Shown here piece by piece: positions 4,729-37,995 of a stretch of DNA of 64,000 bases. The notes beneath the pieces are model-generated. The model saw nothing but the letters and a program-made list of their open reading frames with translations. It was not told the DNA's origin and ran no database searches. The position numbers were made by a program, and so were the translations under genes. Position 1 is the first letter of the stretch; the number at the start of each line of letters is the position of its first letter. This DNA comes from Candidatus Omnitrophota bacterium (lineage in GTDB: Bacteria; Omnitrophota; Gorgyraeia; Zapsychrales; Zapsychraceae): assembly GCA_020632515.1 (NCBI GenBank), contig JACKFK010000006.1, forward strand, positions 139,876 through 203,875, written 5' to 3'.

Positions 4729-4749
4729 CATTACGGCATTCTCTCATTC

Positions 4750-5232
4750 ATGAAAAAAATAAGGAATAGTTACGGATTTACTTTAGTTGAGTTGATGCTG
4801 GTTGTTTTGTTATTGACTGTAATTGCTGGGCTAACTTTGCCGAATTTCAGCCGTGGTTTTGATTCTATGAAGTTAAAACAAACGGCGAAAGATCTCACCT
4901 ATATGATGCGTTATGCGCAAAGCCGCGCGATCACCAAGAATAAACATGTCCGGTTGGTATTTGAAGAGAATTATCAGCGTTATCACTTAGAAGAAGAAAA
5001 CGGTAGTGATAATTTTGTGCAAGTGAACGGACGAGCTGGTCGGATTTTTCATATCCCTTCAGGAATACAAATTGAGAGTGATAATGATGAAATTCTTTTT
5101 TTTCCTGACGGGCAAATTGAGAAATTGTATGTTTACATTTGTCAGCGGGAAAAATGTTTTACGGTTTCCACAAAAGAACAGCGTGGTCATGCGTTGTTAT
5201 ACAACGAGAGGGTTGAGGAAGAAAGGTTATAG
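4750..5232 (+). CDS. gspH: Minor pseudopilin, GspH/FimT-like
   Basis: Prepilin site G|FTLVELMLV, size about 160 aa, TAKDL..MMRYAQSRAI motif typical of the GspH family, position after gspG. Confidence 0.75.
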   Translation: MKKIRNSYGFTLVELMLVVLLLTVIAGLTLPNFSRGFDSMKLKQTAKDLTYMMRYAQSRAITKNKHVRLVFEENYQRYHLEEENGSDNFVQVNGRAGRIFHIPSGIQIESDNDEILFFPDGQIEKLYVYICQREKCFTVSTKEQRGHALLYNERVEEERL

Positions 5233-8200
5233 ATCTATGTTGCCTGAAATGTTAATGCTACTCGTATTAGGCCCTAATTGAACATTTGGTTTTCCGTTGG
5301 CTTTAAAAGTGTTGCGTAAAACATCTACGTCTATTGAATTTGAAATGTACATAGCTCCGGTATTTCCTTCTAGATAATTGTCAGTGATATCAATAGCGCC
5401 GAGCATACCACGCTCAACTTTAACACCCCAACGGTTATTGAGCATACGATTGTTATGGACTTTAACTTGGGTTGAATCGCTTTGCATATAAACACCAATC
5501 TGTAGAGAACCAGTGAAAGTATTGTCATAAATATCCGCGCCTACTGTTGAACCTACCCGCACTCCACCGCCGGTGTTGCTGCCGCGCTGGCTGTTGTCAT
5601 GAATGTTACAGCCAAAAATGGTGACATCATCCCAGCCGACACTGGCCTGAATACCGTGATACCAGTTTGAATAGATTTCGCTATTTTTGATAACAACGCC
5701 TGAGCTGTGTTTTTCAACCGTATTCGAAGCGAGTTTAATACCGTGTCCGTTTCCGCCGCCGCCAGCTAAATTTGTTGTTGAGACTTTCACATTATCAATC
5801 GTGACATTGTGTGTTGGGTGTTGTAGGCTTCCTGTAATTCCGATTCCCCAATGGCCGTGGCCATGCGTTTCAGAGTTTTTAACGGTAATGAATTCTGTTT
5901 TTCCAGAACCGGAGAAACTGTCGTTTCCAATACGGAATCCAACAACCGCATTTTTGACGATGATACCGTCAACGATGATATGGCTCACATCATGAATATA
6001 AAGATTATTAACGCCAGTGCTGGTTTGAATTGTGACTTTCTTAGAGTTCACAGCTTTAATTGTGATCGGTTTAGTGCTGGTTCCACTGTTGGTGTGGCAT
6101 TCAACCGACTCATTATATAATCCATCTTCGATAAATAATGTTTCACCGGCTTTGACAGTATTACATCCTTTATTAATAGTTCTCCAAGGGCTTGTTTTAC
6201 TTCCGCTGTTACTATCATTTCCTATTAGCGAAACATAATAACTGGCTCCTGTTGAAGGTGGCGGAGGAGGCGGCGGTGGTGGAGGGGGCTCTGGTGATGG
6301 TAATTCAATATCAGTCTTGATTAAATAAGTTGAAAATTCAGCTGATGCGACAGGCACATCCACCGGGCCGTTATAATTTCCCGAAACTAAAGGTAACCCA
6401 AAGGCATCTTTGATATCATAAATTCCGAATGTTTGATTTTGTTCGACAACTTGTGATAAGTCGACGGCGACGGTTGTGTTGAGCTTCCAATTAAAGATAA
6501 GTAAGAAACTTTTCTTTGGATTGTAATCATTTGGAATGATACTGATCTTATTAGAAAGCGTTAAAGGGATTTCAGTGGAATTGTTATCAAACATTTTTCC
6601 AGCTAAAGAAGTTTCATTTTGCCATTGATTGATATTCAAAGACGTAAATGTTAGATTATCTGCTTTGAGAGATCCTTTAAATGTTCCAGAGAAAGTGTTG
6701 TCATCAATTACATCATCAGGATCTAAGTTTGAGCATCCTTCACAATTATTGTCAGTTGTTACAGCTGTAGAAATAGTGATATGATCTGCCGGCGGAAGAA
6801 GGAAGCTGTTTCCAGTATAAATATTTGGTGTAGGTTTAGAATTGTCAGCAATGTCATCGCCCCAGAATTTGGAAATTGTTAGTCCTCCTCGTCCGAGATA
6901 GTTGTTTTTAAATTCAGCTTGAAGCGGCATTAGCGCACCTAATATTGGTGAAGTGTTATAAAAGTAATTCTTATTTAAGGTGATGTGACTGGAAGAGTTT
7001 GTAAATTCTCCGATGATAAATGGACGGTTGGCAAAAATGTTTGATTCAAGGTATAGGCCGGTCACAGATGGAGTACAGTTTTGACATTCGCTGTAGGCGT
7101 GGAAATTGTAGGCTGCGTTAGCATCATTATCGATGAGAATATTATTTACAAAGTATTTCCATCCATTATTTTCATACGAATTACGGATTGTAATTCCATG
7201 CGCATTTGTTGTAGCCGTGGCACTTCCTTTTCCGGCTGAATGAATGATATTTCCGTAAAAGACATGATCCCGTCCGAAATCCCAGGCCTGAACACCTATC
7301 TTATTGAAGGTGTGGTGAATGTAGTTGTTAATAAGATGCAAACCTTCCGCTAGAACAACAACCCCGGCCCCACTGCTAATGCCGTCAGGGTCAGTGATCT
7401 CCATGCCCCAGATCCAGTTATATTTTCCTTTGATCGTGAAATTTCCTTCAATCGTAACTTGATTGTTATTGATCGCACGGAAAACAATAGGGTACTGTTT
7501 GCTTCCATTGGCTATTAATGTGTATGCGCCTTGATAGGTGCCATCCATCAGCCAGTATAAATCTCCGGCTGTGGCGTTGCTGATGGCCTGGTCGATATTC
7601 ATTGGATTTGCAGAGGTTCCAGCACCGGTACCGTTCGCGGAAACATAAAACTCTCTTAAAGGGATAAAAGTATTGATCCAAGGCAAGGGTTCATTATATT
7701 CAAAGGCTCCGATGTCATAATTAAAATCTAATGGGCGGTTTAGACCGTCAAAATCTTCGAATATATTTAAAATTTCTTTTCCGGAATTAACCGCAGGACT
7801 GGTTCGGCTTAATTTATAATCTTTGCTAGCCAGGCTGATAAAAAGCGGATCAAATTCATCTCCAATAAGATTATCCGTCAATATTGCTGTCGAGGAATTA
7901 TTCTTAAGGTTGGTGTTGTTTAAAGAGAGAAGGTTATTGGTTAAACTAACAGTTTTTGCCTGTGCGGATATTTCGATACCGGTATTAGTATGATAGGAGA
8001 TTAGATTGTTTGTTAAATCCGCTGTCTCGGCATTATTCGTCAAGAAAACGCCGTTTTGGTTATTTTGTGCAATTGTATTATTATGGATTGTTACGTTACT
8101 GGCTTGATCCATATAAATCCCGTTTTGACCAAAATGATGAATAAGTGAATTTGTGATAGCGATATTGTCGGCGGTTCCGGTGATAATGATTCCATGATTT

Positions 8201-11200
8201 GTTCCGTCTTTGAATTCACAGCGTTCAACTTTGATATGATTCGCGGTGGAATTGATTTCAAGGCCGTTAAGGATATTTTTTGCATCAAACGTCAGGTGAA
8301 TTAACTTAATAAATTGTTCACCCTGATTAAATTTTAATATCGAAGAGCCGGTAGTAGTTTTTAATACGACTATTTCATCAGGATAGCTTGTGATTATAAT
8401 TGGATCATCCCATGAAGTTCCGTTTGGAATGATAGTGTTTGCTGGAATTGTGTACATACCGTCGCGTAGATATAGAGTGTCTCCTGGAAGAAGCAGGCTT
8501 AAGGCTTTGGTGATTGTCTTTAATGGAAAGTTTTCAGTTCCAGGATTTGTGTCATTTCCTGTTGGCGAAAGATAATAGCTTTTATGATTTGTCTGCGTGT
8601 GATTCTCAACCGTGACATTGATAACGGATGATGTGGTTTGATTACCGGCAGCATCTTTGGCCACAGCTTTTAATGTATGAGTTCCGTTTGTATCCAACGT
8701 TGTGTTCCAATTGATAGTGAATGGTTCTTGTGTTTTGGCAATGCCTAAAGGTTTATTATCCAGCATGAATTGAACACTTGTTACACCGACATTATCGTTG
8801 GCTTGCGCGGTAATTGTAATCGTATTAAAAATAAGCGCGTTATTTAATGGTGCTGTTAATGAAATAGAAGGGGCGATATTGTCAACAGCTGGAGTTAATG
8901 AACAATCTATTTCACAACCGTCTCCGGAAATATCATTCGCATCATCACATTCTTCATTGAGTCCTGATTGCACAATGCCATCGCCGCAAGTTTCAACGAT
9001 ACAGTTGGCCGAGCATCCATCATTTGAGGTTTGATTACCATCATCGCACTGTTCGGGAGTTTCGGTTGTTCCGTTCCCGCATTGGGCAGCCGTAATTCCA
9101 GAGCAAGTGACGTTGCATTGGTTTGGTTGGCCATTTTGTTGACCGTCATCACAAATTTCGTTGCCATCAATGGATCCGTCTCCACAGAATAATTGACTGG
9201 AACAGTTGTTAAATCCTGAACACTGTTGATTACAACTTTTATTTCCAGGATATCCGGCTGTTGTTGTGCAGGATGTAAGGTTGCCATCACAAAGTTCACC
9301 AATGCCGGTTTGAATAATCTGATCTCCACAAATCTCATTTTTACATTGTGCGTTACAGCCATCATTCGATTTTATATTACCATCATCACATTGCTCGCCG
9401 GATTCGAGAATATTGTTGCCGCAGACTGCTGTAGTTTTAGCAGAGCAGGAGGCATTACATTTGTTAGGTTGGCCATTTAAAGAGCCATCATCGCATGTTT
9501 CAGTGCCATTGATGACGCCATCGCCGCAAAATTCGCTTTGACATTGCGCGTTACAACCGTCATTAGAGATAATGTTACCATCGTCGCATTCTTCGCCGGA
9601 TTCAAGAACGTTGTTGCCGCAGATACCTGTGGTCTGTCCGGAGCAGGTGCTGTTGCAATGATTTGGCTGTCCGTTTAACTGAGCTTCATCACAAATTTCC
9701 GATCCATTAACAATGCCGTCGCCGCAAGACTCACTGCTGATACAGGCTGTGAAACCAGTACATAAATTGTTGCATTCCTTTGTTCCTTTATAGCCTTTGT
9801 TCGTTGTGCAGCCTCTGCTGTTAGCATCGCATATTTCATGAACTCCTGAGCCATTATTCATTTGAACAATCCCATCGCCACAAATTGTAAGCTGACATGA
9901 GCTTGTACATTGTGAAGATCCTGTAGACCCGTCGTCGCATTCTTCGCCGTTTTCCTGGATGGAATTTCCGCAAACAGCAGTGGTGATGGCTGTACAACTG
10001 CTGTTACAATGATTGGCTTGCCCGTTAATTGTGCCTTCGTCACAGATTTCATGACCGTTTATAATGCCATCGCCGCAAAATTCTGAAGATACGCATGATG
10101 AAAAAGCTGTGCATTGATCGTTGCAGTATTTTGTTCCAGCATAACCGGTGCTAGTTAAACAGGATTCATTATTCGAATCGCAGATTTCAGTAACTTGATT
10201 TCCGTTTGGAGATTGTATAAGATGATCCCCGCATTGCGTGATTTTGCAGTCTATATTACATTGAGAAGATCCTGCAGAGCCGTCATCGCATTCCTCACCG
10301 TCTTCTATAATATCGTTACCACAAGTGCTGGGAACTTTACCATTACAGCTTATATTACACTGATTCGGTTGACCATTTAAAGAAGCGTCATCACAGGTTT
10401 CTTGGCCGTTAATGATGCCGTCGCCGCAGAAATTTGAACTCACACACATTGAAAATCCACTGCATTCTGTATTGCAGTCTTGAGAACCAACATACCCATC
10501 GGTAGTGATACATTGCTGCGAATTGCTATCGCAGGTTTCTGTTTTTTTCATGCCATTGAGAGATTGAATAATTTGATCGCCGCATTTGGTTAATTGACAT
10601 TGAGAGGTGCATTGATCAGATCCTTCACTTCCGTCATCACATGATTCTCCAGATTCTTGAACGCTATTGCCGCAAACAGGGGAAGTGATGGCTGTACATT
10701 GTTGATTACAATGGTTTGGTTGCCCGTTGAGGGTGCCATCATCACATTGCTCATGTCCATTGATAATTCCATCACCGCAAGATTCAATGGCTGTACATGT
10801 ATTGAAATTAGAGCATTGATTGTTACATTGTTGAGTACCTTTATATCCACTATCAGTCGTACAGGATTGACTGTTCGAATCACAGATTTCGTTAAAGTTA
10901 AATCCGTTTGGTTTTTGAATAGTTCCATCATTACAGTAGGTGAAGTTACATTGTGCGCTGCAACGCTGAGATCCATTGGGGCCATCGTCACAAATCTCAC
11001 TGCCTTCGATGATGTTGTTCCCACAAATTGCGGCGGTTAATCCGGAACAGGAGGTGTTGCATTTATTCGGCTGGCCGTTGGCAGTTCCGTTATCACAAAC
11101 CTCATTATTATTTTTTATACCATCGCCGCAAAATTCCAACTGACATGTATTGGTGCAGCCATCCCCGGAAACTGTATTACCATCATCACATTTCTCTCCG

Positions 11201-17114: not shown

Positions 17115-17507
17115 ATGAAAAATGAGAGTGGTTCAGTTTTATTAGAAGCCCTGCTGGCAACTGTTATTTTATCTGTTAGTATTACAATTATTATTCAGTC
17201 ATTAACCTCGAGTTTACGGGCCGCGCAGTATAGTTCTCAATATACCGAAGGTTTAATTCTCATTGATGATCAGTTAACCGAATATTTTCAAGAGGGGGTA
17301 GTTGAGTCGGATTTGAATGAGAATGGAAATCTTGCCGCCCCTTATGAAAAATATCAATATAAAGCAAGCACAGAACCTGCAGAGGAATTCGGTGAAAATA
17401 TTAATATTCTTGACTACCAACTAAATTGGCAAAGCGGACGACGGAAGAATAATATTAAAGTGCAAACATTATTGTTTAAAAAAGATGATGAAACAGCAAT
17501 TCAATAA
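17115..17507 (+). CDS. gspI: Minor pseudopilin, GspI-like
   Basis: N-terminus MKNESG|SVLLEALLATVILSV has G at -1 and E at +5, with an atypical S at +1. Size 130 aa. Position before a GspJ-like gene. Confidence 0.6.
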   Translation: MKNESGSVLLEALLATVILSVSITIIIQSLTSSLRAAQYSSQYTEGLILIDDQLTEYFQEGVVESDLNENGNLAAPYEKYQYKASTEPAEEFGENINILDYQLNWQSGRRKNNIKVQTLLFKKDDETAIQ

Positions 17508-18234
17508 TATTTCAAGAGCAAGGCTTATAACGAATAATGGATTTACACTTATCGAGTTATTATTAGCTATAAGCATTTTTTCAATTATAGGGTTAACAGT
17601 TTATAGTGTTTTTTCAAGTGGTATTCGGTTAAGTGAATATTCCGAAGGGCAAGGAGATATTTATCGTCAAGCTAGATGGATTTTGGATTTAATGAGTGCT
17701 GATTTAGAAGCTGCTGTAAATTATGATTTTAGTAGTTTTTATGCTGAAAAAAGTGCTTTTTTAGGAAATAAAGAAGAAATTCAATTCTTGAAAGAAACTA
17801 CGGGAGGTTTAAAAGTTATTAAATATTTTTTGATTGTTCCGGAGAGTTCATCTATTCATAAGGTTATTATTGGAAAAAAATATAAAAAGAATGTTGATAT
17901 TAATTTAGTAAACTCTCAAGCAGAAAGTAGGTATTTTTTAGTTCGAGAAGAAAAATCTTTTTTAGATTTCTTAACTGATGTTAATAGTGATAAAAATAGT
18001 TTGGAAGTTATAGCAACGAATTTCGCGGCAGATGGTTTGCGTTTTAGTTATGGTTTCTTAGATCAGCAAGATTCGTCTGAATCTAGTTGGCGTGATCAAT
18101 GGGACAGGAAGTATGTGCCTATAAACGTTTACGTTGAGATGGATTTAATATCAGAATCAGAAGAAAAAATTATTCATTTTGAAAAGAAAGTCTTAATTCC
18201 AACCGGATTCTGGGGGGAAGAACAGCAGGCATAA
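17485..18234 (+). CDS. gspJ: Minor pseudopilin, GspJ/PulJ-like
   Basis: Prepilin site NNG|FTLIELLLAISIFSIIG, about 250 aa, overlaps the end of gspI. Confidence 0.65.
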   Translation: MMKQQFNNISRARLITNNGFTLIELLLAISIFSIIGLTVYSVFSSGIRLSEYSEGQGDIYRQARWILDLMSADLEAAVNYDFSSFYAEKSAFLGNKEEIQFLKETTGGLKVIKYFLIVPESSSIHKVIIGKKYKKNVDINLVNSQAESRYFLVREEKSFLDFLTDVNSDKNSLEVIATNFAADGLRFSYGFLDQQDSSESSWRDQWDRKYVPINVYVEMDLISESEEKIIHFEKKVLIPTGFWGEEQQA

Positions 18235-18311
18235 AGTTGTTTTTATCTTCATAGAAGATTTTACTTTTTGTTATAATGAGCAATATATAAAAAATAAACA
18301 CACATCTATTT

Positions 18312-19736: not shown

Positions 19737-19753
19737 GTTGAATAAGGAATAAA

Positions 19754-31500: not shown

Positions 31501-34500
31501 GAATATTTTCTGACGGTGGGAACAAAATCTGGTTTAGGAGATGTTTATGAACAATCTCAGGGATTAAATCGGAGTGTTACAATAAACAATCTTCCTTTGG
31601 TGAATTTAGAATTATATGTACGATTATGGTCGAAGATTAAGAATGAATGGATTATTAATGATTATTTTTATCCTACTAAGAGTAATTTACAGAAAAATCC
31701 AGATGCAGGGGATGTTGTTAAACCTGAACCAGGATCAACAATTTATTTTCCAGATGTGACCTTTGAATGGACGCCGGGTAAAGGTGTAGAAGAATTCTTT
31801 TTTGCGATAGGTCAAGATCCTGAGATTTTTGATATATATCGACAATTACAGGGGAAAAACACAAGTGTTTCTGTTGTGATTCCGATTGATGATCAAGTTA
31901 AATATGTGCATTTATGGTCAAAGATTGCGGGAGTTTGGTATGCCAATAATTATATTTATAAAACTGACGGCAGTAAAATTCCACCAACCGTGCCGACGAA
32001 TTTAAAAGTAACAGGAGTAACTGCAAACAGTGTATCGTTATCTTGGGGACCGTCAACCGACAATTATACGGATAGTCGAGGATTAAAAGGATATCGAATT
32101 TATCGTAATGGACAGTTAGTGGGGACAACGAGTGGCCGCACTTATACAGATGTAGGATTGTCGCCAAATCGGACTTATACATATCAAGTAGCTGCTTATG
32201 ACGGACATAATAATGAATCAAGTAGATCAAACAGTGTGAGTGCGACTACTTTAAATGGGGGTTTTAGTGGTCCGGTCTGTAGCGGAGGAGGATTTGATGG
32301 TGGCGGCACAGGAGTCGAACCTTTATGTCAGAATATTAAAGATTGTCCGCCAAATGGTATAGTTTATTTTGTGGCAGAAAATGGAGATGACAATAATCCA
32401 GGAACAGAAAATCAGCCCTTTAAGACAATTCAAAAGGCTGCGGATGTAGTTAAGGGAGGCGAAACGGTATTTGTCCGTAGCGGAACATATGCAGGATTTC
32501 GGGTTGTGAATCTGCACCCACCAGCAGGTCAATGGATTACTTTTAAATCCTATCCAGGAGAAACAGCCACTGTCAATACACAAAATGGCCCAGTCAGGTT
32601 GTCTGGAGCCAGTTATTTAATTTTCGAAGGATTAGAAATTACTAATAAAGGATTCGATAATTCTCAAAGATGTGATTTAGTGAATGATCCAACTGGTTCT
32701 TGTAAAGCCTTGGCTATTCAAGAATCAGGGGGGAATCCAGGGATACTAGTCGATAGTACTTATTTTGGTAATGCGGATACGGATACGCATCATATCATTA
32801 TCCGCCATAATAATATCCATCATAATAGAAGTCATGGGATTAATGCTTCAACAGGAGCTGATCCAGTAAAATATCCAAATGGGCAGGGGAATTATAAATT
32901 TGAGATTGTAAATAATCAAATTCATAATAATGGAATTAAAGGATTGACTGGAGGATATGGTACTTATGTTACGGGGACAGATTTAATCATCAAAGGAAAT
33001 ATTTTTCATGATAATAATGGACAAGGGATGCGTTTAGGAAACATTAGTACAAATAACAATATAGTTAATTCAATTATAGAAAATAATATTAGTTATAACA
33101 ATACTGGACCGTTGTGGCATAGTGGCAACGGTGGTAAAGTTGAGACCACCGCTGGATTCGGATTTATTCTTTATGGCGGACGAAATAATATTATGCGTAA
33201 CAATGTCGCGTATGGAAATTATGGGGGAGGATTGCAGGATACTACTCTAGAAAAAGCCAGGCCAGATAAGATTTATAATAACACTTTCTTTCATAATGGA
33301 ACTTATGGCATAACTATGACAGGTTATGGGGTCGCACAAAATAATATATTTTGGGGAAATGCCAAGAGAATTCCCGCATATGAAGTTGAGCTTTGGGATG
33401 AATCTTCAGCAAAGAATAATTTAGTTGGTGGAAATCAATTGTTAGTAAGAGCTAATAATAGCAGCACAGCGAGTAATAATATTTTGAATAAAGATCCTTT
33501 ATTGATTAACGCGGCAAATGGAAATTTTAGATTAAAAGAAGGAAGTCCAGCTGTTGATGCCGGGGTTTCAGTATCGGAAGTAACCACGGATTTTGATGGT
33601 AGCTTTCGTCCGCAAGGAGATAATTATGATATAGGTGCTTATGAAGAATTCAAAGGCAACAGCGGTGGCGGAGTTAAACCTGGAAATGGAATAATTTATT
33701 ATACAGCGACCAATGGAAACGATAGCAATCCTGGAACCGAGGCACAGCCGTTTCGGACAATTAAAAAGGGCGTTGAAACTCTTCAAGCCGGTGATACATT
33801 ATATGTCAAACAAGGAACTTACAATGAATCTATTATAAGTTGGGAAACAACCGTCCGTAGTGGCGCTTCATGGTCGAATCCAATTACAATATCCGCTTAT
33901 CCAGGGGACACGGTGACTATCCGTCCCAAACCAGGAAACGCAGCGTTTTGGTTTAAGCATGGACCAAATCTAGCTACGATTCAGTATATCGTCATTAACG
34001 GATTTATCATTGACGGACAGGGTACTGCTCTTCATGGAATTAAGTTTCAAAATAGTAAACCGCCCAAACAAGGATCAGATGCCTATAACGGACCGCATAA
34101 TATCCGTGTTAGCAATACAGAAATTAAGAATGTGACTGCCAGCGGGCTTTTGGTTAGTGGGGACGGGCATGAATTTTTACGATTGAAAGTGCATAATTGT
34201 GGAACAAGTTTCTTTGATCATGGGATTTACGCAAGTGGCAACAGAAACATCATTGCGGATTCCGAATGGTATAGTAACGCGGGATATGGCATCCAGATTA
34301 ATCATGAATCTAAAGGGTGGGATGGTAAAGTGTCAGAGCTTAACTCCCAAGAGAATATTATTAAAGGGAATTATGCGCATAACAACGGAACAGATACAGC
34401 TAAACCATTTGGCTGTGGGATTGTTTTTTGGTATACAAGCAATAATGTGGCATATAACAACATACTCAGTAATAATATAAACTGTGGAATACAACTGCGA

Positions 34501-37500
34501 CATAATAATTCAGTCTATAATAATACAATTTATGGGAATAAAAATAATGCAATTGTCACAGGTACGAATGCTGATAATTCAGAGTTTATCAATAATCTTA
34601 GTTTTAATAGCGGTCCGCATTCAATAAAGGCAGGTGATTTTGTTTTTGAGAATAACCTGACGGGGGTTGATCCTTTGTTTGTGAATCCTGCGAGTGGCGA
34701 TTTTCGCTTACGATCAGGATCGCCGGCGATAGATAAGGGTTTAGCTTTATCTATTGTAAAGGATGATTATCTTAAGGTTAAAAGACCGTTGGGTAACGAT
34801 TTTGACATTGGAGCGTTTGAATACAGGCCATTAATCGGAATTAATGGAATTAAAAGTGTTCAAACAAGTGTGAATCAAGGGGATCATAGTGTAAATAAGA
34901 CAACGTTGAGTTTATATGAGGCCTTTGAATTAAGTGTGATCAATAATGATACGTATTTTGATCCATCTGATCCGAAAGAAATAGCTCTGTTGGTGACATT
35001 CAATCATGAATCCGGAGAGTCCAGTTATAAATTGCCGGGAGTATACATAAAGAATGAAAGTGGTAATGTTTGGAATGTAAGTTTTATAGCTCCTAAAGCT
35101 GGTCAATGGGGATATACCTTTGAATGGGTTGGAGCATCACCAAATAAACCTGTACGAGGGCAAGGAGAATTTACGATTACATCAGATGAAGTTGTACAGA
35201 ATCAGGAAAGAATCTTAGGGGTGGTATCACAAAACAATTTAGTAGGTATAAAAGCTTCCGGGAAAACTTATTATGTGGCCACCTATGGTAATGATGCTGA
35301 TCCTGGTTCCGAATTGCAGCCATTTCGTACGATTAAAAAAGGTGTAAGTATTCTTGATGCGGGTGATACGTTATTGGTCCGGGCTGGGACTTATCAGGAA
35401 GCTATTTTAAGTTGGGAAACGACGGTTCGCAGTGGAGATTCATGGTCGAATCCTATTACTATATCTTCCTATCCAGGAGAGGTAGTAATTATCAAACCAT
35501 CTTCACAAAGTGCTGCTTTCTGGTTTAAAACTGGACCAAATAATTCTGTGATTCAGTATGTTGTGATTAACGGTTTTGTTATTGATGGTGGAGTACATGG
35601 TATTAAATTACAAGGATGTTTGTCTGGTGGAACAGATTCGTGGTGTTCAAACGAACCTGCACCAAGAAATATTCAGGTTAGTAATGTTGAAATAATGAAT
35701 ACTGATTTAAGCGGACTTCAGACAAATGGTGATGGGCACAGATTTCTTAATTTGAAAATTCATGATACAGGTAAATCAGGCTCTGGTCATGGTATTTATC
35801 ATGAGGGTACTAATAGTATTATTGCGCATTCAGAGATTTATTCAGGGACAGGTTATGGTATTCAACTTAATAACGAACATGCTGGACAAGTTTCAGAAAA
35901 TAATTTTCTTTATAACAATTATTCACATGGACATGAAGATTGTGGCATTGTTTTTTGGGTATCAAAAAATAATACTGCTTATAATAATATTCTTAGTAGT
36001 AATAAAAATTGTGGCATTAGAGTTCGTTTGGGAGGCGCTAAAGTTTTCAATAATACTATTTACAAAAATGGACCTTACGCTGGTGTTGTTGTGCAAGAAT
36101 TTGCGGATAATGTTCAAGTAGTGAATAATATTGTTTACCAAAATGGAACGGATATTCTTGATGCGGGTCCAAATACTATTAAGAGTAACAATTTGGTTGG
36201 AGTTGATCCATTATTGGTAAATCCAGCTGGAGGAAATTTTCATCTTAAAGCAGAATCTCCGGCAATTGATGTAGGTAAAACATTATCTGAAGTAAAGTTT
36301 GACTTTAATAATGGAGCTCGTCCTTTTGGTGTGCGCTACGATATTGGCGCGTATGAATATGGAGCTGCTCCGTCGAAACCTAGTGATAGTGGGGGGGGCT
36401 CTTCTGGTGGTTCAGGTGTATTTGATGATGAAACTCCAACAAGTCCAACTAATTTGATAGCGACAGCAACATCAAGTTCAACAATTCAATTATCCTGGAA
36501 TGGGTCATCTGACAATGTTGGTGTGATTGGGTATTATATTGTCCGTGATGGACAAATTATTAATTCAGTCGCGGGAACAAGCTTCACTGATGCAGGGCTC
36601 TCTCCAAAGACAACGTATACGTATCAAGTCATTGCTTTTGATGATGCGTGTAATGAATCCTCCCCATCTAATATTGCTTCTGATACGACACCAGAAATGC
36701 TTGTTGTGGGTGGTGTGGGAGGGAGTGAACCATGTCAAAATATCGCAGATTGTCCAGTAACGGGAATCGCATATTTTGTGGCAATGAATGGAGATGATGC
36801 TAATCCGGGAACATTTGATAAACCATTTAAAACTTTGAATAAAGCGGTTAACGTTGTTAAGCCAGGGGAAACGATATTTTTGCGAAACGGGGGTCCGTAT
36901 GCGGGGGTGCGACTTGAAAATATGGCGAACCGGAATGATGCATGGGTTACGATCAAATCTTATCCAGGTGAGCATGCGGTTATAGATGCGTCTTTGTCCA
37001 AAGGTGTTGGTTTTGATTTAAGAGGCGTAAGTTATTTGATTCTTGAAGATTTGGAAATTATGAATAGTCGATTTACCAATGATAAAGAGCCTGGTTTATG
37101 GTGTGATATTAATGAATTATCCTGCCAACAAGATGCAGAAAATTATCACCAACATAGAGCAATTGTAATTCATTCGACAAAAGAGGGGAATGCCCCGTGG
37201 ACACCTCATGATCTTGTAATGCGACGTTTAAATATTCATAGTCATGGTGGAACTGCAATTTTAGGATCTTGGGGGTCGTACAATATTCAAGTTTTGGATA
37301 GTCACCTTCATGATAATGGGGTTAAAGGGGTTTCGGAAGGGTATGGAACGTATATTTCCACGAACAATGGATTATTTAGAGGGAATATTGTTCATGATAA
37401 TAGTGGAAATGGAATGAGGTTTGGGAATACGCCGGAAGAGAATTATTGGATTCGAAATTCCATTATGGAGAATAATATTGTTTATGATAATGGCGGCCGT

Positions 37501-37995
37501 TTTTGGCATTCACAGCGTGTGGTCGATGATGGTTCTGGTATTCTGCTTTTTGGTGGCGAAAATAATATTGTTCGCAATAATGTTATTTGGAGGCAATATG
37601 GATCAGGGATTCAGGTAACCGGACGAGGCGCGCAAAATAATCGGATTTATAATAATACAATTTCAAATTCAGGAAAGTGGGGGCTTTTTTTAACCGTCGA
37701 AGATGCTTCGATCGTAGAAAATAATATAGTTTTTAATAGCGCTATGAATAAAGAAACAACAAAGAATGTTATTCAACCAGGAAGTAAATTGAGTAATAAT
37801 CTTATTGATATTGATCCATTATTCGTTAATCCGAGTGCGGGTAATTTTAAACTTCAATCAGGCAGTCCCGCGATTAATAAGGGGAAGACGGTTGCTGAGG
37901 TGCCAACTGATATGGAAGGTGTTGCTCGTCCACAAGGAGGAACGTATGATATTGGCGCGTATGAATATCGTTCAATAGTAGGAACAGGGATTTAA
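28528..37995 (+). CDS. Giant secreted protein 2 (3155 aa): signal peptide, 7 aromatic ~90-aa modules, Asp-box propeller-like domain, Ig-like domains, 2 FN3, 4 parallel beta-helix modules
   Basis: Single ORF. N-terminus MSMNRVLNNKLLQTIGLGVFLSIIPVGVHAG looks like a Sec signal peptide. Domains are listed separately. Confidence 0.9.
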   Translation: MSMNRVLNNKLLQTIGLGVFLSIIPVGVHAGVPEGPQVYSPVNGSRLEGKSVTFRWSSGGVGVSDIKTLLVGRSPGSADIYGNAMMGNAVTVNNMPNDGNPVYVRLWYQLDNENYFQDYVYNVTGRLMGIKPVGVGVVVEPVVEPLVREVAAGGFRNIRAPSVLNNPIAGVEKRMWISGWWNDTDVGEQLDKIYYMDYANGGWEVKRQTIEWDVRSVKEHLEAGAMEGASINNPTVIRRDGDGNLVMYYDYLAETAENGVESKVGVAESEDGGRTWIDYSFDRDVLGGRDFVIDEVNGAIGPSAVKVNNGVWLYYHDGLEPMNVWRQQMGTDGISLVGTREKVNIPSGYTGNVRNVDVTWDGDKYLLAGNTGDLKNVVVFSSIDGINFEDPMSVDNPFIRGGSSYVLTPHLEYVENDKFKIYLGFNNSQEVNGSESILEWLYENPTKSNQAQVSIQANPSEIEAGESTVLSWEATNVDSCSASWMTSANLGKLSGAQVISPQVTSIYEVECLSETGDVGASVTVQVKVSNGSGESQAAEMLRPGAGEVIKTSSVVFSWDGGVNVSEYYLGVATAAGKLAVSPYGDIYAKNVGQVKEVTVNGIPNGVSTIYARLWSKISGIWEYKDYSYAVTNGNNNNEGVEELGSGQAQEGTAKLIKPVLGEKIKSTTTFEWSLGPDVSEVTLWIGGINGEADIYKQNQGLNTSVTVENIPMHFVWIYVTLWSKVNGEWLFEQYQFRPGEDAGGDGGGDGGNNGPSGTLAKMIKPTSGTVINGTSVTFEWDAGEKVSAYWLYIGSEVGQRNLVDSGELNGLTFQYSEVPQDGIRLYVRLFSQIEGQWFYNDYQYGTPGGNDGGGGDGGGGGVVEVPAELIRPATGAVINSNPVQFEWNSGAGVGEYFLKIGTVSGSGNILQESMKKSQSKSVEIPLNVSKIYVQLLSRINGTFHTRSYEFLIDTTVDVDPADAAEMLSPKPETMIDQTSVTFEWSSGSGVSEYFLTVGTKSGLGDVYEQSQGLNRSVTINNLPLVNLELYVRLWSKIKNEWIINDYFYPTKSNLQKNPDAGDVVKPEPGSTIYFPDVTFEWTPGKGVEEFFFAIGQDPEIFDIYRQLQGKNTSVSVVIPIDDQVKYVHLWSKIAGVWYANNYIYKTDGSKIPPTVPTNLKVTGVTANSVSLSWGPSTDNYTDSRGLKGYRIYRNGQLVGTTSGRTYTDVGLSPNRTYTYQVAAYDGHNNESSRSNSVSATTLNGGFSGPVCSGGGFDGGGTGVEPLCQNIKDCPPNGIVYFVAENGDDNNPGTENQPFKTIQKAADVVKGGETVFVRSGTYAGFRVVNLHPPAGQWITFKSYPGETATVNTQNGPVRLSGASYLIFEGLEITNKGFDNSQRCDLVNDPTGSCKALAIQESGGNPGILVDSTYFGNADTDTHHIIIRHNNIHHNRSHGINASTGADPVKYPNGQGNYKFEIVNNQIHNNGIKGLTGGYGTYVTGTDLIIKGNIFHDNNGQGMRLGNISTNNNIVNSIIENNISYNNTGPLWHSGNGGKVETTAGFGFILYGGRNNIMRNNVAYGNYGGGLQDTTLEKARPDKIYNNTFFHNGTYGITMTGYGVAQNNIFWGNAKRIPAYEVELWDESSAKNNLVGGNQLLVRANNSSTASNNILNKDPLLINAANGNFRLKEGSPAVDAGVSVSEVTTDFDGSFRPQGDNYDIGAYEEFKGNSGGGVKPGNGIIYYTATNGNDSNPGTEAQPFRTIKKGVETLQAGDTLYVKQGTYNESIISWETTVRSGASWSNPITISAYPGDTVTIRPKPGNAAFWFKHGPNLATIQYIVINGFIIDGQGTALHGIKFQNSKPPKQGSDAYNGPHNIRVSNTEIKNVTASGLLVSGDGHEFLRLKVHNCGTSFFDHGIYASGNRNIIADSEWYSNAGYGIQINHESKGWDGKVSELNSQENIIKGNYAHNNGTDTAKPFGCGIVFWYTSNNVAYNNILSNNINCGIQLRHNNSVYNNTIYGNKNNAIVTGTNADNSEFINNLSFNSGPHSIKAGDFVFENNLTGVDPLFVNPASGDFRLRSGSPAIDKGLALSIVKDDYLKVKRPLGNDFDIGAFEYRPLIGINGIKSVQTSVNQGDHSVNKTTLSLYEAFELSVINNDTYFDPSDPKEIALLVTFNHESGESSYKLPGVYIKNESGNVWNVSFIAPKAGQWGYTFEWVGASPNKPVRGQGEFTITSDEVVQNQERILGVVSQNNLVGIKASGKTYYVATYGNDADPGSELQPFRTIKKGVSILDAGDTLLVRAGTYQEAILSWETTVRSGDSWSNPITISSYPGEVVIIKPSSQSAAFWFKTGPNNSVIQYVVINGFVIDGGVHGIKLQGCLSGGTDSWCSNEPAPRNIQVSNVEIMNTDLSGLQTNGDGHRFLNLKIHDTGKSGSGHGIYHEGTNSIIAHSEIYSGTGYGIQLNNEHAGQVSENNFLYNNYSHGHEDCGIVFWVSKNNTAYNNILSSNKNCGIRVRLGGAKVFNNTIYKNGPYAGVVVQEFADNVQVVNNIVYQNGTDILDAGPNTIKSNNLVGVDPLLVNPAGGNFHLKAESPAIDVGKTLSEVKFDFNNGARPFGVRYDIGAYEYGAAPSKPSDSGGGSSGGSGVFDDETPTSPTNLIATATSSSTIQLSWNGSSDNVGVIGYYIVRDGQIINSVAGTSFTDAGLSPKTTYTYQVIAFDDACNESSPSNIASDTTPEMLVVGGVGGSEPCQNIADCPVTGIAYFVAMNGDDANPGTFDKPFKTLNKAVNVVKPGETIFLRNGGPYAGVRLENMANRNDAWVTIKSYPGEHAVIDASLSKGVGFDLRGVSYLILEDLEIMNSRFTNDKEPGLWCDINELSCQQDAENYHQHRAIVIHSTKEGNAPWTPHDLVMRRLNIHSHGGTAILGSWGSYNIQVLDSHLHDNGVKGVSEGYGTYISTNNGLFRGNIVHDNSGNGMRFGNTPEENYWIRNSIMENNIVYDNGGRFWHSQRVVDDGSGILLFGGENNIVRNNVIWRQYGSGIQVTGRGAQNNRIYNNTISNSGKWGLFLTVEDASIVENNIVFNSAMNKETTKNVIQPGSKLSNNLIDIDPLFVNPSAGNFKLQSGSPAINKGKTVAEVPTDMEGVARPQGGTYDIGAYEYRSIVGTGI
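28618..28893 (+). repeat. Aromatic ~90-aa module, copy 1 of 7
   Basis: P.NGS.L....VTFRWS.GGVGVS...LLVG...G..DIY.......AVTV.NMP.DG.PVYVRLWY......YFQDYVY. Confidence 0.7.
28990..29862 (+). other. Beta-propeller-like domain with an Asp-box (BNR) motif; glycoside-hydrolase/sialidase-like
   Basis: SEDGGRTW fits S-x-D-x-G-x-T-W. Repeated hydrophobic-strand / Gly-Asp turn pattern (RRDGDGNLVMYY, VWLYYHDG, VTWDGDKYLLAGN, FSSIDGINF). Confidence 0.45.
29875..30114 (+). other. Ig-like domain
   Basis: VSIQANPSEIEAGESTVLSWEATNVDSC........G...V.P..T..YEVEC....G..GASVTVQV. Confidence 0.5.
30139..31962 (+). repeat. Aromatic ~90-aa modules, copies 2-7 (30139-30417, 30484-30738, 30802-31062, 31117-31380, 31417-31674, 31708-31962), separated by G/D-rich linkers
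   Basis: Consensus read from the translation: (L/I).P..G..I....V.FEW..G.GVSEY.L.(V/I)G...G..D(I/V)Y......N.SVTV..(I/L)P.....(I/L)YV.LWSKI.G.W...DY.Y. Confidence 0.8.
31981..32250 (+). other. Fibronectin type III domain 1
   Basis: PTNLKVTGVTANSVSLSW.PSTDN......GY.IYRNG..VGTT....YTD.GLSPN.TYTYQV.AYD...NES. Confidence 0.8.
32323..33648 (+). other. Parallel beta-helix module A
   Basis: EPLCQNIKDCP lead-in. VYFVAENGDDNNPGTENQPFKTIQKAADVVKGGETVFVRSGTY cap. NN.I.(H/Y)(N/D)N turns. SPAVDAG.......DFDG..RPQG..YDIGAYE end. Confidence 0.75.
33682..34827 (+). other. Parallel beta-helix module B
   Basis: IYYTATNGNDSNPGTEAQPFRTIKKGVETLQAGDTLYVKQGTYNE cap ... SPAIDKG...FDIGAFEY end. Confidence 0.75.
34828..35181 (+). 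other. Central beta-sandwich-like domain (resembles Ig-like N-terminal domains of some glycosidases)
   Basis: LSLYEAFELSV........DPSDP.EIALLVTF.HESGES.YKLPGVY......WNVSF.APKAGQWGYTFEW. Family name uncertain. Confidence 0.35.
35257..36363 (+). other. Parallel beta-helix module C (paralogue of B)
   Basis: Roughly half of positions are identical to module B by eye (YYVATYGNDADPGSELQPFRTIKKGVSILDAGDTLLVRAGTYQEAILSWETTVRSGDSWSNPITISSYPGE...). Confidence 0.75.
36433..36690 (+). other. Fibronectin type III domain 2
   Basis: PTNLIATATSSSTIQLSWNGSSDNVGVIGYYIVRDG.......GTSFTDAGLSPKTTYTYQVIAFD...NES. Confidence 0.8.
36727..37992 (+). other. Parallel beta-helix module D (paralogue of A)
   Basis: SEPCQNIADCP lead-in. 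AYFVAMNGDDANPGTFDKPFKTLNKAVNVVKPGETIFLRNGG.Y. GYGTYI..N...RGNIVHDNSGNGMRFGN parallels module A. Confidence 0.75.

What the first reader, a model, noticed from the sequence alone, without database searches (positions are those of the whole stretch)
5227..37995. The two giant proteins share beta-helix modules on different targeting arrays
Beta-helix modules 1 and 3 of giant protein 1, and B and C of giant protein 2, share the same cap (YY(L/V/T)(S/A)..GND.N(P/S)G....P(F/L/W).TI.K........GDTL......G.Y). Module 1 of giant protein 1 and all four giant protein 2 modules share the tail (SPA(V/I)(N/D).G...........RP.....(Y/F)DIGA(F/Y)E). Module 3 ends the protein differently (GPNTSSINISGNIDL).

The N-terminal arrays are unrelated: Cys-rich repeats in one, aromatic modules with propeller and FN3 in the other.

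This looks like module shuffling within a locus-specific effector family. The modules are paralogous catalytic or adhesive units mounted on alternative stalks or binding arrays, and both proteins flank the same secretion and regulatory genes.
Basis: partly seen in the sequence, partly recalled or inferred. Interest (0 to 1): 0.6.

Follow-up and report, generated by a model that had tools for sequence, protein, structure and literature searches.

The report
Generic beta-helix domains in two giants
Two very large secreted proteins of an Omnitrophota bacterium carry several copies of a common sugar-enzyme-like beta-helix domain, and the "shared" head and tail motifs are the standard end-caps of that huge domain family, not evidence that the two genes swapped modules.

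Summary
The motifs are real. Both ORFs (5227-16407 minus, 3726 aa; 28528-37995 plus, 3155 aa) carry right-handed parallel beta-helix modules with the described cap and tail.

The cap is the Pfam DUF1565/Pel9A-like N-terminal cap. The tail is NCBIfam NF041518 (choice-of-anchor Q). Both are the near-invariant columns of a family with about 16,000 50%-identity clusters, and both occur in the solved pectate lyase Pel9A (1RU4).

In a 302-module NJ tree only A+D and B+C of giant protein 2 are sisters (100% bootstrap). These are old intragenic block duplications. Giant-protein-1 modules never group with each other or with giant-protein-2 modules, and 100-230 foreign modules are closer. The two genes share no DNA similarity.

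Seven foreign homologues lie in Wzy-type polysaccharide clusters, phage-tail or contractile-injection regions, or beside BamA/TamB. None lies near a T2SS. Of 80 related GspE loci, 79 lack the modules.

In relatives the T2SS operon is contiguous, so giant protein 1 is a lineage-specific insertion that splits it, and gspK is missing here.

Best reading: these are ordinary new members of known domain families, probably secreted glycan-binding or glycan-degrading proteins. The "locus-specific shuffled effector family" is not supported.

The parts
5227..16407 (-). Giant protein 1 (GP1), 3726 aa: Sec-type signal peptide, Cys-rich DUF4215 array, Big_7 Ig domain, three beta-helix modules
   Evidence: ORF, translation, Pfam and NCBIfam. 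The signal peptide (MFKSYLKSVLIITVFATIGLHIKTASG) was read from the sequence.
8938..16110 (-). GP1 Cys-rich acidic repeat array (aa ~100-2490): 32-37 DUF4215/TIGR02232 repeats, 289 cysteines
   Evidence: PF13948 at E 4e-184 with 32 stretches. TIGR02232 at 1027 bits with 37 stretches. Cys count.
8665..8871 (-). GP1 Big_7 bacterial Ig domain (aa 2513-2581)
   Evidence: PF17957 at E 6e-17.
7693..8586 (-). GP1 beta-helix module M1 (aa 2608-2905), with cap and choice-of-anchor-Q tail
   Evidence: DUF1565 and NosD hits. NF041518 at aa 2863-2905. Motifs located. Exhaustive search.
6283..7656 (-). GP1 module M2 (aa 2918-3375): divergent beta-helix with a chondroitinase-B-like cap plus an unassigned ~135-aa C-terminal domain; no tail
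   Evidence: PF14592 at 26.2 bits against a cut-off of 24. Module HMM hit at aa 2918-3239. BLASTP to the other modules is confined to the N-terminal part of the module and is weak (best E 4e-4 to 5e-5 with M1 and M3).
5230..6249 (-). GP1 module M3 (aa 3387-3726), preceded by a poly-Pro linker; has the cap but no tail; forms the C-terminus of the protein
   Evidence: PelN-like partial hit at aa 3384-3530, far below the cut-off.
28528..37995 (+). Giant protein 2 (GP2), 3155 aa: signal peptide, FN3-like repeat array with a BNR-like insert, and four beta-helix modules interspersed with FN3 and DUF5060 domains
28627..28899 (+). GP2 aromatic FN3-like repeat 1 (aa 34-124)
   Evidence: 27-37% identity to the other six repeats. 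Alignment A3.
28915..29892 (+). GP2 unassigned domain (aa 130-455) with Asp-box motifs; possible BNR-type propeller
   Evidence: BNR_2 at E 0.009, below threshold. No PDB sequence match. Asp-box SEDGGRTW read.
30130..31971 (+). GP2 six tandem aromatic FN3-like repeats (aa 535-1148)
   Evidence: Internal BLASTP. AF2 model at pLDDT 92.4. Foldseek hits to FN3 domains at TM 0.6-0.69.
31981..32247 (+). GP2 canonical FN3 number 1 (aa ~1152-1240); together with the CQNIxDCP linker and module A it forms one duplicated block
   Evidence: PF00041. 47% identity to the FN3 number 2 plus linker.
32356..33651 (+). GP2 module A (aa 1277-1708), with cap (YF variant) and tail
   Evidence: Sister of D with 100/100 bootstrap.
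33688..34827 (+). GP2 module B (aa 1721-2100), with cap and tail
   Evidence: 54% identity to C. Sister of C with 100/100 bootstrap.
34909..35121 (+). GP2 DUF5060 beta-sandwich between B and C (aa 2128-2198)
   Evidence: PF16586 at E 1e-8.
35260..36363 (+). GP2 module C (aa 2245-2612), with cap and tail; this is the module that was modelled
   Evidence: AF2 at pLDDT 95.5, a right-handed beta-helix. Foldseek best TM to Pel9A 1RU4, 0.72.
36436..36717 (+). GP2 canonical FN3 number 2 (aa ~2637-2730)
   Evidence: PF00041.
36763..37971 (+). GP2 module D (aa 2746-3148), with cap (YF variant) and tail
   Evidence: 41% identity to A.
1316..5232 (+). T2SS genes gspE, gspF, gspG and gspH. The gspH stop overlaps the GP1 stop; the two genes converge.
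   Evidence: Translations. Synteny and identity to Omnitrophota loci. Pfam T2SSG and GspH.
17115..22585 (+). Remaining T2SS genes: two minor pseudopilins, a PilM/PilN fusion, PilO/GspM, a 190-aa protein, and the secretin GspD. There is no gspK.
   Evidence: Pfam, synteny, gspK absence.

Best explanation
Organism and proteins. The window is a chromosomal stretch of a Candidatus Omnitrophota bacterium. The two giant ORFs encode Sec-exported, multi-domain extracellular proteins.

Modules. Their C-terminal halves are strings of autonomous right-handed parallel beta-helix domains of 300-430 aa, belonging to the Pel9A-like/DUF1565 superfamily.

Cap and tail. The shared 'cap' (YYV..G.D.N.G....PF.TI..A......GDT.....G.Y) and 'tail' (SPAID.G....D..G..RP.....YDIGAYE, NCBIfam choice-of-anchor Q) sit at the two termini of this domain. 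They are conserved across the whole superfamily, from Dickeya Pel9A to thousands of single-domain proteins. That they act as structural end-caps of the helix is inferred from their position and conservation. Any two members therefore look alike at their ends.

Origin of the modules. GP2's four modules arose by two old intragenic duplications: the block FN3-linker-helix gave A and D, and a helix duplication gave B and C. GP1's three modules belong to three different subfamilies. They are not specifically related to GP2's modules or to each other. The N-terminal parts (DUF4215 Cys-knot repeats; FN3-like sandwiches plus a possible BNR domain) are generic stalk or binding repeats.

Inferred function. 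These are secreted or surface-exposed glycan-binding or glycan-cleaving proteins that act on foreign (prey, host or environmental) polysaccharide, possibly exported by the adjacent T2SS.

Linkage to the T2SS. The linkage is lineage-specific. GP1 is an insertion on the opposite strand that splits an operon which is contiguous in relatives. It is not a property of the module family.
For: SHOWN
- Pfam and NCBIfam identify the cap as DUF1565/Pel9A-like and the tail as NF041518.
- The cap and tail positions are the invariant or >=90%-conserved columns in an alignment of modules C and B with 72 foreign proteins.
- A profile of that alignment aligns full-length to Pel9A 1RU4, which itself has YYVAPNGNSSNNGS...PGELILLKPGTYT and ...DLGAFE.
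- Module C models as a beta-helix at pLDDT 95.5.
- The best structural match by TM is 1RU4 (0.72). The other top matches are GH136, GH120, PL9, PL6 and AlgE/AlgG enzymes, with phage depolymerases and a surface adhesin further down the list.
- An exhaustive phmmer search with GP1-M1 gives 15,914 cluster representatives at E<=1e-3 and 2,808 at E<=1e-10.
- More than 120 foreign ~400-aa proteins are 31-42% identical to module C over 91-100% of its length (97-100% for all but two). GP1-M1 is 27.7% identical.
- By per-domain score, GP2 modules rank 167th or lower for GP1-M1, and GP1 modules rank 243rd or lower for B and C.
- In the NJ tree of 302 modules, A+D and B+C each have 100/100 bootstrap. GP1-M1 formed an exclusive clade neither with M3 nor with B+C in any of the 100 bootstrap replicates, and the single NJ tree shows no exclusive GP1+GP2 grouping (smallest clades holding M1+B+C, M3+B+C or all six window modules: 52-59 members).
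- FN3+linker units are 47% identical and contiguous with the 41% identity of A and D.
- There are no DNA matches between GP1 and GP2. Patches of 67-78% DNA identity remain within B/C and A/D.
- Taxonomy and synteny: GspE is up to 71% identical to Omnitrophota MAGs. The order gspE-F-G-H-I-J-K-pilMN-pilO-x-gspD is contiguous in L002, L007, L008, L012, L014 and others.

INFERRED
- Glycan-related function. This rests on the structural neighbours and on the contexts of foreign homologues: 4 of 7 in Wzy-type polysaccharide clusters, 1 in a phage tail region, 1 beside a contractile injection system.
- Possible T2SS export. This rests on the signal peptides (read), the adjacency, the published observation that Omnitrophota giant genes neighbour T2SS-like loci (bioRxiv 10.1101/2023.11.21.568195), and the finding that 17 of 80 related GspE loci have a >=1000-aa ORF within 10 kb; the six of the seven scanned that gave Pfam hits carry varied extracellular domains.
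Against: - The trees are NJ trees on a 344-column alignment of very divergent domains (corrected distances >1). Deep branching is therefore unreliable. A weak, ancient GP1-GP2 relationship cannot be excluded, only a specific or recent one.
- The foreign set was collected with M1 and C as queries, so it is biased towards their relatives.
- Catalysis is unproven. The Pel9A Ca2+/Lys motif is not conserved: the family has GYGIH where Pel9A has DDGFD. PelN equivalog scores are far below the cut-off.
- T2SS export of 350-400 kDa proteins has no precedent that I know of.
- The operon here is split and lacks gspK, which may mean the T2SS is impaired.
- The rest of the genome was not available, so further paralogues could exist.
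Confidence: 0.8

Rival explanations
1. The seven modules are a locus-specific paralogous effector family, and modules have been shuffled between the two T2SS-flanking genes onto different targeting arrays.
For: - All modules belong to one superfamily and share the cap, and five of them the tail.
- Both genes lie within 12 kb of T2SS genes.
- Within GP2 there really has been duplication of modules.
Against: - Cross-protein identity is only 26-32%, while hundreds of foreign modules score higher.
- No bootstrap replicate recovered an exclusive M1+M3 or M1+B+C clade, and the NJ tree shows no exclusive GP1+GP2 grouping.
- GP1 and GP2 share no DNA similarity.
- The motifs are superfamily-wide and present in Pel9A.
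- None of 7 foreign homologue loci has T2SS genes, and 79 of 80 GspE loci have no module match.
- GP1 is absent from the orthologous position in relatives.
Confidence: 0.05
2. The beta-helix modules are non-catalytic. The two proteins are pure adhesins or surface fibres, like beta-helix adhesins such as PfbA or phage receptor-binding proteins, with the helices acting as rigid glycan-binding rods.
For: - The PL9 catalytic and Ca2+ residues are not conserved.
- PelN equivalog scores are far below the cut-off.
- The adhesin PfbA and phage tailspikes appear among the structural neighbours.
- There is a weak PHROG tail-spike hit for M1.
- The modules are mounted on long repeat stalks.
Against: - The best structural and profile neighbours are enzymes: PL9, GH136, GH120, PL6 and C5-epimerases.
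- Family-wide conserved polar residues in the central coils (E144, H168, Y180 in module C numbering) suggest a site under selection.
- Homologues sit inside polysaccharide biosynthesis clusters, where processing enzymes are usual.
- Several divergent helices in one protein resembles multi-catalytic CAZymes (my own knowledge).
Confidence: 0.25
3. The co-location with the T2SS is incidental, or even destructive. GP1 is a foreign insertion that split the operon, the T2SS (which also lacks gspK) is decaying, and the giant proteins use another route or stay cell-associated.
For: - The operon is contiguous in relatives but is interrupted here by an 11.9-kb segment on the opposite strand.
- gspK is present in relatives and absent from all 64 kb of this window.
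- GP1 synonymous codon usage deviates about twice as much as other large gene sets.
- No orthologues of GP1 or GP2 were found in the metagenome scans.
Against: - All other T2SS ORFs are intact and 35-71% identical to their orthologues.
- A 707-bp AT-rich spacer could hold divergent promoters, though the scan there is not above chance.
- Large extracellular-type ORFs next to gspE are frequent in related genomes: 17 of 80 loci. This is also reported in the literature.
- The codon-usage deviation may be a strand effect, because the other minus-strand genes also deviate.
- gspK could lie elsewhere in the genome.
Confidence: 0.3

Closest known systems
Pel9A (PelL) pectate lyase of Dickeya/Erwinia chrysanthemi, PDB 1RU4 (CAZy PL9); Pfam PF22842 Pel9A-like_beta_helix / PF07602 DUF1565
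   Same: - Same right-handed parallel beta-helix fold (TM 0.72 to the module C model).
- Full-length profile alignment.
- The same N-terminal cap motif and the same C-terminal ...D(I/L)GA(F/Y)E tail.
- From my own knowledge, Pel9A is a Sec-exported, T2SS (Out)-secreted enzyme.
   Different: - Only about 17% identity.
- Pel9A's Ca2+-binding DDGFD and its catalytic Lys are not conserved in the B/C-type family.
- The NCBIfam PelN equivalog scores 60-73 bits against a cut-off of 740.
- Pel9A is a single-domain 400-aa enzyme, not part of a 3-4 kaa multi-module protein.
Single-module 'right-handed parallel beta-helix repeat-containing proteins' with an NF041518 choice-of-anchor Q tail (about 400 aa; Anaerolineae, Nitrospirota and many metagenomic lineages)
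   Same: - 31-42% identical to modules B and C over the whole module.
- The same invariant cap and tail columns.
- They are closer to each window module than the window's other modules are, apart from the A/D and B/C pairs.
   Different: - They are stand-alone proteins. In the set analysed, 199 of 267 have one module, 28 have two, and 12 have three to seven.
- They lie mostly in Wzy-type polysaccharide biosynthesis clusters or in phage-tail or contractile-injection contexts, not near a T2SS.
Omnitrophota giant proteins (Archaeovorin-type and Dockerin-type) next to T2SS-like loci (West-Roberts et al. 2023, bioRxiv 10.1101/2023.11.21.568195; also bioRxiv 10.64898/2026.06.07.730766)
   Same: - Same phylum.
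- Very long extracellular-type proteins encoded beside gspD, gspE and gspF homologues.
- A proposed role in adhesion and carbohydrate degradation.
   Different: - The published giants reach up to 85,804 aa. They have many transmembrane regions, SecA DEAD domains and novel antiparallel beta-helix tubes, and their secretion locus includes rcpC and a rotamase.
- GP1 and GP2 are 3.2-3.7 kaa, have a single signal peptide, give no SecA or TM-rich hits in Pfam, and have classical parallel beta-helices.
DUF4215 / TIGR02232 cysteine-rich acidic repeat proteins (Myxococcota, Bdellovibrionota, Patescibacteria, some eukaryotes)
   Same: The GP1 array consists of 32-37 such repeats. More than 4,400 proteins match at E<=1e-10.
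   Different: - None of the top 120 DUF4215 proteins carries a beta-helix Pfam domain.
- None of 267 beta-helix homologues carries the Cys array.
- The DUF4215-plus-three-helix architecture therefore looks uncommon.

Membership tests
Pel9A-like / DUF1565 right-handed beta-helix superfamily (Pfam PF22842, PF07602, PF13229) | Pfam HMM match above the gathering score | tested here: met
   GP2: Beta_helix 150.7 bits, Pel9A-like 80.5 bits, DUF1565 66.6 bits. GP1: DUF1565 42.2 bits, NosD 52.2 bits. All are above their cut-offs.
Pel9A-like / DUF1565 right-handed beta-helix superfamily (Pfam PF22842, PF07602, PF13229) | Right-handed parallel beta-helix fold with an N-terminal cap | tested here: met
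   Module C AF2 model at pLDDT 95.5, with stacked short strands and a cap helix at residues 25-30. Foldseek to 1RU4 at TMq 0.72. Only module C was modelled; the others are inferred from the alignment.
NCBIfam NF041518 choice-of-anchor Q domain | HMM match above the 25-bit cut-off at the C-terminal end of the helix | tested here: met
   GP2: 177.7 bits in 4 stretches. GP1: 29.3 bits in 1 stretch, aa 2863-2905. M2 and M3 lack it.
CAZy PL9 pectate lyase (Pel9A/PelN) | Ca2+-binding Asp cluster (DDxxD) and catalytic Lys (residue identities recalled from the Pel9A literature, located here by the DDGFD motif in 1RU4) | tested here: not met
   In the profile-to-1RU4 alignment the family consensus is GYGIH opposite DDGFD, and there is no Lys opposite the GNGFKLGG lysine. 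This was tested for the B/C-type family only.
CAZy PL9 pectate lyase (Pel9A/PelN) | NCBIfam NF041899 PelN equivalog score >= 740 | tested here: not met
   73 bits for GP1 and 59.6 bits for GP2.
Omnitrophota giant proteins sensu West-Roberts et al. 2023 | Extreme length, numerous transmembrane regions, divergent SecA DEAD domain | tested here: not met
   Lengths are 3726 and 3155 aa. There is no SecA/DEAD hit in Pfam at E<=0.01. The only hydrophobic segment is N-terminal. Definition taken.
Omnitrophota giant proteins sensu West-Roberts et al. 2023 | Encoded adjacent to a T2SS-like secretion locus | tested here: met
   gspE-H and gspI-D flank GP1, and GP2 starts 6 kb downstream of gspD.
Type II secretion substrates | N-terminal Sec or Tat signal peptide for periplasmic delivery | tested here: inconclusive
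   Both N-termini read as n-h-c signal peptides (MFKSYLKSVLIITVFATIGLHIKTASG; MSMNRVLNNKLLQTIGLGVFLSIIPVGVHA). No predictor was available.
Type II secretion substrates | T2SS-dependent appearance outside the cell | not testable with these tools
   This needs secretome comparison or genetics. There is no sequence motif that defines T2SS cargo (established knowledge).
DUF4215 / TIGR02232 cysteine-rich acidic repeat proteins | Repeat HMM matches above the cut-off | tested here: met
   PF13948 at 597 bits with 32 stretches. TIGR02232 at 1027 bits with 37 stretches.
   Only A+D and B+C are sisters. GP1 modules rank behind 100-270 foreign modules.
   None of 7 homologue loci has T2SS genes. Only 1 of 80 GspE loci has a weak, tail-only match.

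The most novel reading that the evidence does not exclude
In Omnitrophota the neighbourhood of the T2SS operon may act as a hypervariable 'cargo slot'. Lineage-specific, very large extracellular proteins are inserted there, even inside the operon as GP1 is here. GP1 (about 400 kDa, about 290 cysteines) and GP2 (about 340 kDa) would then be genuine T2SS substrates, far larger than any characterised one, exported by a remodelled machine that lacks GspK and used to bind and cut prey or host surface glycans.
Probability: 0.2. Interest if true: 0.55.

Novelty: new member of a known kind. Interest (0 to 1): 0.25.

Why it matters
The main value is as a correction. The cap and tail motifs that look like a private signature are generic end-caps of a very large beta-helix superfamily. 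They should not be read as evidence of local module exchange.

What remains of modest interest:
1. Two more examples of large multi-helix, CAZyme-like secreted proteins next to a T2SS in Omnitrophota. This fits the published idea that this phylum invests in very large extracellular proteins for attachment and glycan degradation.
2. A clear case of intragenic block duplication (FN3-linker-helix).
3. An unusual fusion of about 35 DUF4215 Cys-knot repeats to three different beta-helices.
4. A T2SS operon split by a giant gene and lacking gspK.

None of these opens a new category.

Tried and rejected
- Exact look-up of the window's GspE in the contig index found nothing on record.
- The word-index homologue search with GP1-M1 gave only 4 hits. 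The exhaustive search was needed.
- Metagenome scans for orthologues gave nothing useful. GP1 M2-M3 found nothing. GP2 found only 6 generic matches at 23-35% identity. Conservation of either giant gene in another genome could therefore not be shown. The one exception is P0125, a near-identical truncated copy of the GP1 C-terminus, presumably from the same population.
- BLASTP of GP2 against itself returned only the identity hit. I replaced it with piecewise queries.
- A promoter and terminator scan of the 707-bp spacer between GP1 and the downstream T2SS genes was not above shuffled expectation.
- A PDB sequence search with the GP2 aa 121-471 domain found nothing. A Pfam scan of aa 130-455 gave only sub-threshold BNR_2, so the 'propeller' stays unproven.
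- PL9 pectate-lyase membership was considered and rejected, on catalytic residues and the equivalog score.
- Membership of the published Omnitrophota giant-protein types was considered and rejected.
- Phage origin was considered. Only weak PHROG hits turned up, although one homologue does lie in a phage tail region.
- Horizontal transfer of GP1 was considered from codon usage. The result is inconclusive because of a possible strand effect.
- A literature search for DUF1565 returned no paper about the domain itself or its fold.

Full report
**What is there**

The finding's coordinates coincide with two ORFs: 5227-16407 on the minus strand (GP1, 3726 aa) and 28528-37995 on the plus strand (GP2, 3155 aa).

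GP1, in order:
- a signal-peptide-like N-terminus;
- 32-37 DUF4215/TIGR02232 cysteine-rich acidic repeats, with 289 Cys in the first 2500 residues;
- a Big_7 Ig domain;
- three beta-helix modules: M1 (aa 2608-2905), M2 (aa 2918-3375, with a chondroitinase-B-like cap plus an unassigned C-terminal domain) and, after a poly-proline linker, M3 (aa 3387-3726).

GP2, in order:
- a signal peptide;
- one aromatic ~100-aa repeat;
- a ~330-aa domain with Asp-box motifs (BNR_2 only at E 0.009);
- six more aromatic repeats, which model as FN3-like sandwiches (pLDDT 92; Foldseek FN3 TM 0.6-0.69);
- FN3, module A, module B, DUF5060, module C, FN3, module D.

**Observation check**

The cap is also present in A and D as a YF variant and, degenerately, in M2. 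The tail motif DIGA[YF]E occurs five times in the two giants and nowhere else in any frame of the window. A module HMM finds no further copy in the window.

**What the motifs are**

- The cap is the Pfam DUF1565/Pel9A-like N-terminal region.
- The tail is NCBIfam NF041518, the 'choice-of-anchor Q domain'. It matches four stretches in GP2 (177.7 bits) and one in GP1 (29.3 bits; cut-off 25).
- I aligned modules C and B with 72 foreign proteins.
- A profile of this alignment aligns end-to-end with the solved pectate lyase Pel9A (1RU4). That protein begins YYVAPNGNSSNNGS...PGELILLKPGTYT and ends ...DLGAFE.
- Module C folds as a right-handed parallel beta-helix (pLDDT 95.5). Its best TM match is 1RU4 (0.72). 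GH136, GH120, PL9, PL6 and AlgE/AlgG enzymes also rank high, with phage depolymerases further down the list.

The motifs therefore sit at the two termini of a superfamily-wide domain. That they act as structural end-caps is my inference from position and conservation.

**Are the window's modules specifically related?**

Pairwise BLASTP:

| Pair | Identity |
|---|---|
| B / C | 54% |
| A / D | 41% |
| all other full-length pairs, including GP1 vs GP2 | 26-30% |
| pairs that align only in part | about 23-36% |

M2 matches the others only weakly, through its N-terminal part. The wider evidence is as follows.

- An exhaustive phmmer search of 1.84 billion cluster representatives with M1 finds 15,914 at E<=1e-3 and 2,808 at E<=1e-10.
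- The word-index search with module C lists more than 120 proteins, mostly of about 400 aa, at 31-42% identity over 91-100% of the module (97-100% for all but two).
- By best-domain phmmer score against 267 foreign proteins, the best GP2 module ranks 167th for M1. GP1 modules rank 243rd or lower for B and C. A/D and B/C are reciprocal top hits.
- An NJ tree of 302 full-length modules, with 100 bootstraps, gives A+D and B+C 100% support. In no replicate did M1 form an exclusive clade with M3 or with B+C, and in the single tree the smallest clades holding M1+B+C, M3+B+C or all six window modules have 52-59 members.
- The FN3+linker (CQNIxDCP) units preceding A and D are 47% identical. The unit FN3-linker-helix was therefore duplicated as a block.
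- GP1 and GP2 share no detectable DNA similarity. B/C and A/D retain patches of 67-78% DNA identity.

Conclusion: there were two old intragenic duplications inside GP2, and there is no specific relationship between the two giants.

**Linkage to secretion genes**

The window is from Candidatus Omnitrophota: its GspE is up to 71% identical to Omnitrophota MAGs. The genes around the giants are as follows.

- gspE, gspF, gspG and gspH (1316-5232, plus strand) are followed by GP1 on the opposite strand.
- Next come two minor pseudopilins, pilMN, pilO/gspM, a 190-aa ORF and the secretin (17115-22585).
- Then a response regulator, a SpoU methylase, an ECF sigma factor, a DedA protein and a flavoprotein disulfide reductase.
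- GP2 follows these.

In the closest relatives the operon runs gspE-F-G-H-I-J-K-pilMN-pilO-x-gspD without interruption. GP1 is therefore a lineage-specific 11.9-kb insertion that splits the operon. In addition, the gspK gene of the relatives (T2SSK_1st) has no homologue anywhere in the window.

Three results test linkage from the other direction.

- tblastn of all seven modules and both N-terminal arrays against 80 GspE loci (up to +/-10 kb) gives one weak tail-only match.
- Seven foreign homologues were located on contigs. Four lie in Wzy-type polysaccharide biosynthesis clusters, one in a phage tail region, one beside a contractile-injection system, and one beside BamA/TamB. None has T2SS genes within 10 kb.
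- 17 of the 80 GspE loci do carry some ORF of >=1000 aa. Of the seven I scanned with Pfam, six have quite different extracellular domain sets: CarboxypepD_reg+CBM60+Kelch, FG-GAP+He_PIG, subtilase+dockerin, Big_7+Laminin_G, Big_2+LTD+BNR. The seventh gave no Pfam hit.

This agrees with the published observation that Omnitrophota giant genes neighbour T2SS-like loci (bioRxiv 10.1101/2023.11.21.568195; bioRxiv 10.64898/2026.06.07.730766). The linkage is between 'large extracellular protein' and T2SS in this phylum. It is not between this module family and T2SS.

**How it most likely works**

Shown: the domain identities, the fold of module C, and the duplication history.

Inferred: both proteins are exported by Sec, then secreted or displayed, possibly through the adjacent T2SS. 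The repeat arrays (disulfide-knotted DUF4215; FN3-like) would serve as stalks or binding arrays. The beta-helices would bind or cleave polysaccharide of prey, host or the environment.

The glycan-related role rests on two things: the enzymatic nature of almost all structural neighbours, and the polysaccharide-cluster and phage-tail contexts of homologues.

The modules are not PL9 lyases. The Pel9A DDGFD Ca2+ site and the catalytic Lys are replaced, and PelN equivalog scores are 60-73 bits against a cut-off of 740. A purely adhesive role remains possible.

**Caveats**

- The NJ trees are built on very divergent domains.
- The foreign set is biased to M1-like and C-like sequences.
- Only one module was modelled.
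- The rest of the genome was unavailable.
- No orthologue of either giant was found in another genome, apart from a near-identical fragment, P0125.
- GP1's deviant codon usage may be a strand effect.

**Verdict**

The proteins are new members of known kinds. Interest is low to moderate.

Noticed in passing
window 5227-17115, compared with L002 5226-6093, L007, L008, L012 and L014: GP1 plus a 707-bp AT-rich spacer sits on the opposite strand between gspH and the gspI-like gene. In related Omnitrophota these two genes are about 50 bp apart. The T2SS operon is therefore split by a lineage-specific 11.9-kb insertion. The gspH and GP1 stop codons overlap (5227-5232).
   Followed up: yes
window 18234-18312, compared with L002:6825-7931, L007:14925-16058 and L014:10025-11095: Relatives encode a 360-400-aa GspK (Pfam T2SSK_1st) between the gspJ-like gene and pilMN. 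The window has only a 78-bp gap there, and tblastn finds no gspK homologue anywhere in the 64 kb.
   Followed up: partly
L003, L016, L019, L024, L027, L030, L033, L046, L051, L054 and others (GspE loci): 17 of 80 related GspE loci carry an ORF of >=1000 aa within 10 kb, often directly upstream of gspE. Six of the seven scanned with Pfam have varied extracellular domain sets (CBM60/Kelch/CarboxypepD_reg, FG-GAP/He_PIG, subtilase+dockerin, Big_7+Laminin_G_3, Big_2+LTD+BNR); L003 gave no hit. This suggests a variable 'cargo' neighbourhood.
   Followed up: partly
window 8938-16110 (GP1 aa ~100-2490): This is an extreme cysteine-rich array: 289 Cys in 32-37 DUF4215/TIGR02232 repeats of several subtypes. 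None of the top 120 DUF4215 proteins in the public set has a beta-helix domain, and none of 267 beta-helix homologues has this array.
   Followed up: partly
L082 (P0006), L083 (P0055), L084 (P0049), and the contig of P0001: The closest single-module homologues of the window's modules sit inside Wzy-type polysaccharide biosynthesis clusters (GT4/GT2 glycosyltransferases, Wzy_C, Asn synthase, PGA_cap, CapK_C). This hints that the B/C-type subfamily is a polysaccharide-processing enzyme.
   Followed up: partly
L081 (P0014) and L085 (P0075): Other homologues lie next to a phage tape-measure and Laminin_G tail region, and next to a contractile injection system (sheath, gp19 tube, Pvc16, eCIS_core).
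   Followed up: no
window 28627-28899 and 30130-31971: The seven 'aromatic' repeats of GP2 (consensus P..G..I....V.F.W..G.GVSEY.L.IG...G..DIY......SVTV..IP.....YVRLWSKI.G.W...DY.Y) have no Pfam match but model confidently as FN3-like beta-sandwiches. Only one of 267 foreign beta-helix proteins (P0255) has the repeat.
   Followed up: yes
window 28915-29892: GP2 aa 130-455 has Asp-box motifs (SEDGGRTW, SSIDGINF). It gets only a sub-threshold BNR_2 hit and no PDB sequence match. It may be a divergent sialidase-like propeller.
   Followed up: partly
window 5230-16107: GP1's synonymous codon usage deviates from the window background about twice as much as other gene sets of similar size (RSCU distance 0.14-0.155 against 0.065-0.07). 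The two other minus-strand genes also deviate, so strand bias and foreign origin cannot be told apart.
   Followed up: partly
P0125 (966 aa, from the representative library): This is a near-identical N-terminally truncated copy of the GP1 C-terminus (from mid-M1 to the end). The same gene, from the same or a very close population, therefore exists as a fragment in public metagenome data.
   Followed up: no
P0126 (4910 aa, 7 modules), P0143 (3154 aa, 4 modules), P0153 and P0264 (4 modules each): Multi-module strings of this beta-helix domain occur in other giant proteins elsewhere. Concatenating the domain is therefore a recurrent theme and not unique to this locus.
   Followed up: no
window 47990-49382, 51489-51995 and 62749-63774: Several medium-sized ORFs downstream have no Pfam match. 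One of them, 48720-49382, has a long antisense ORF (48780-49379). I did not examine them.
   Followed up: no
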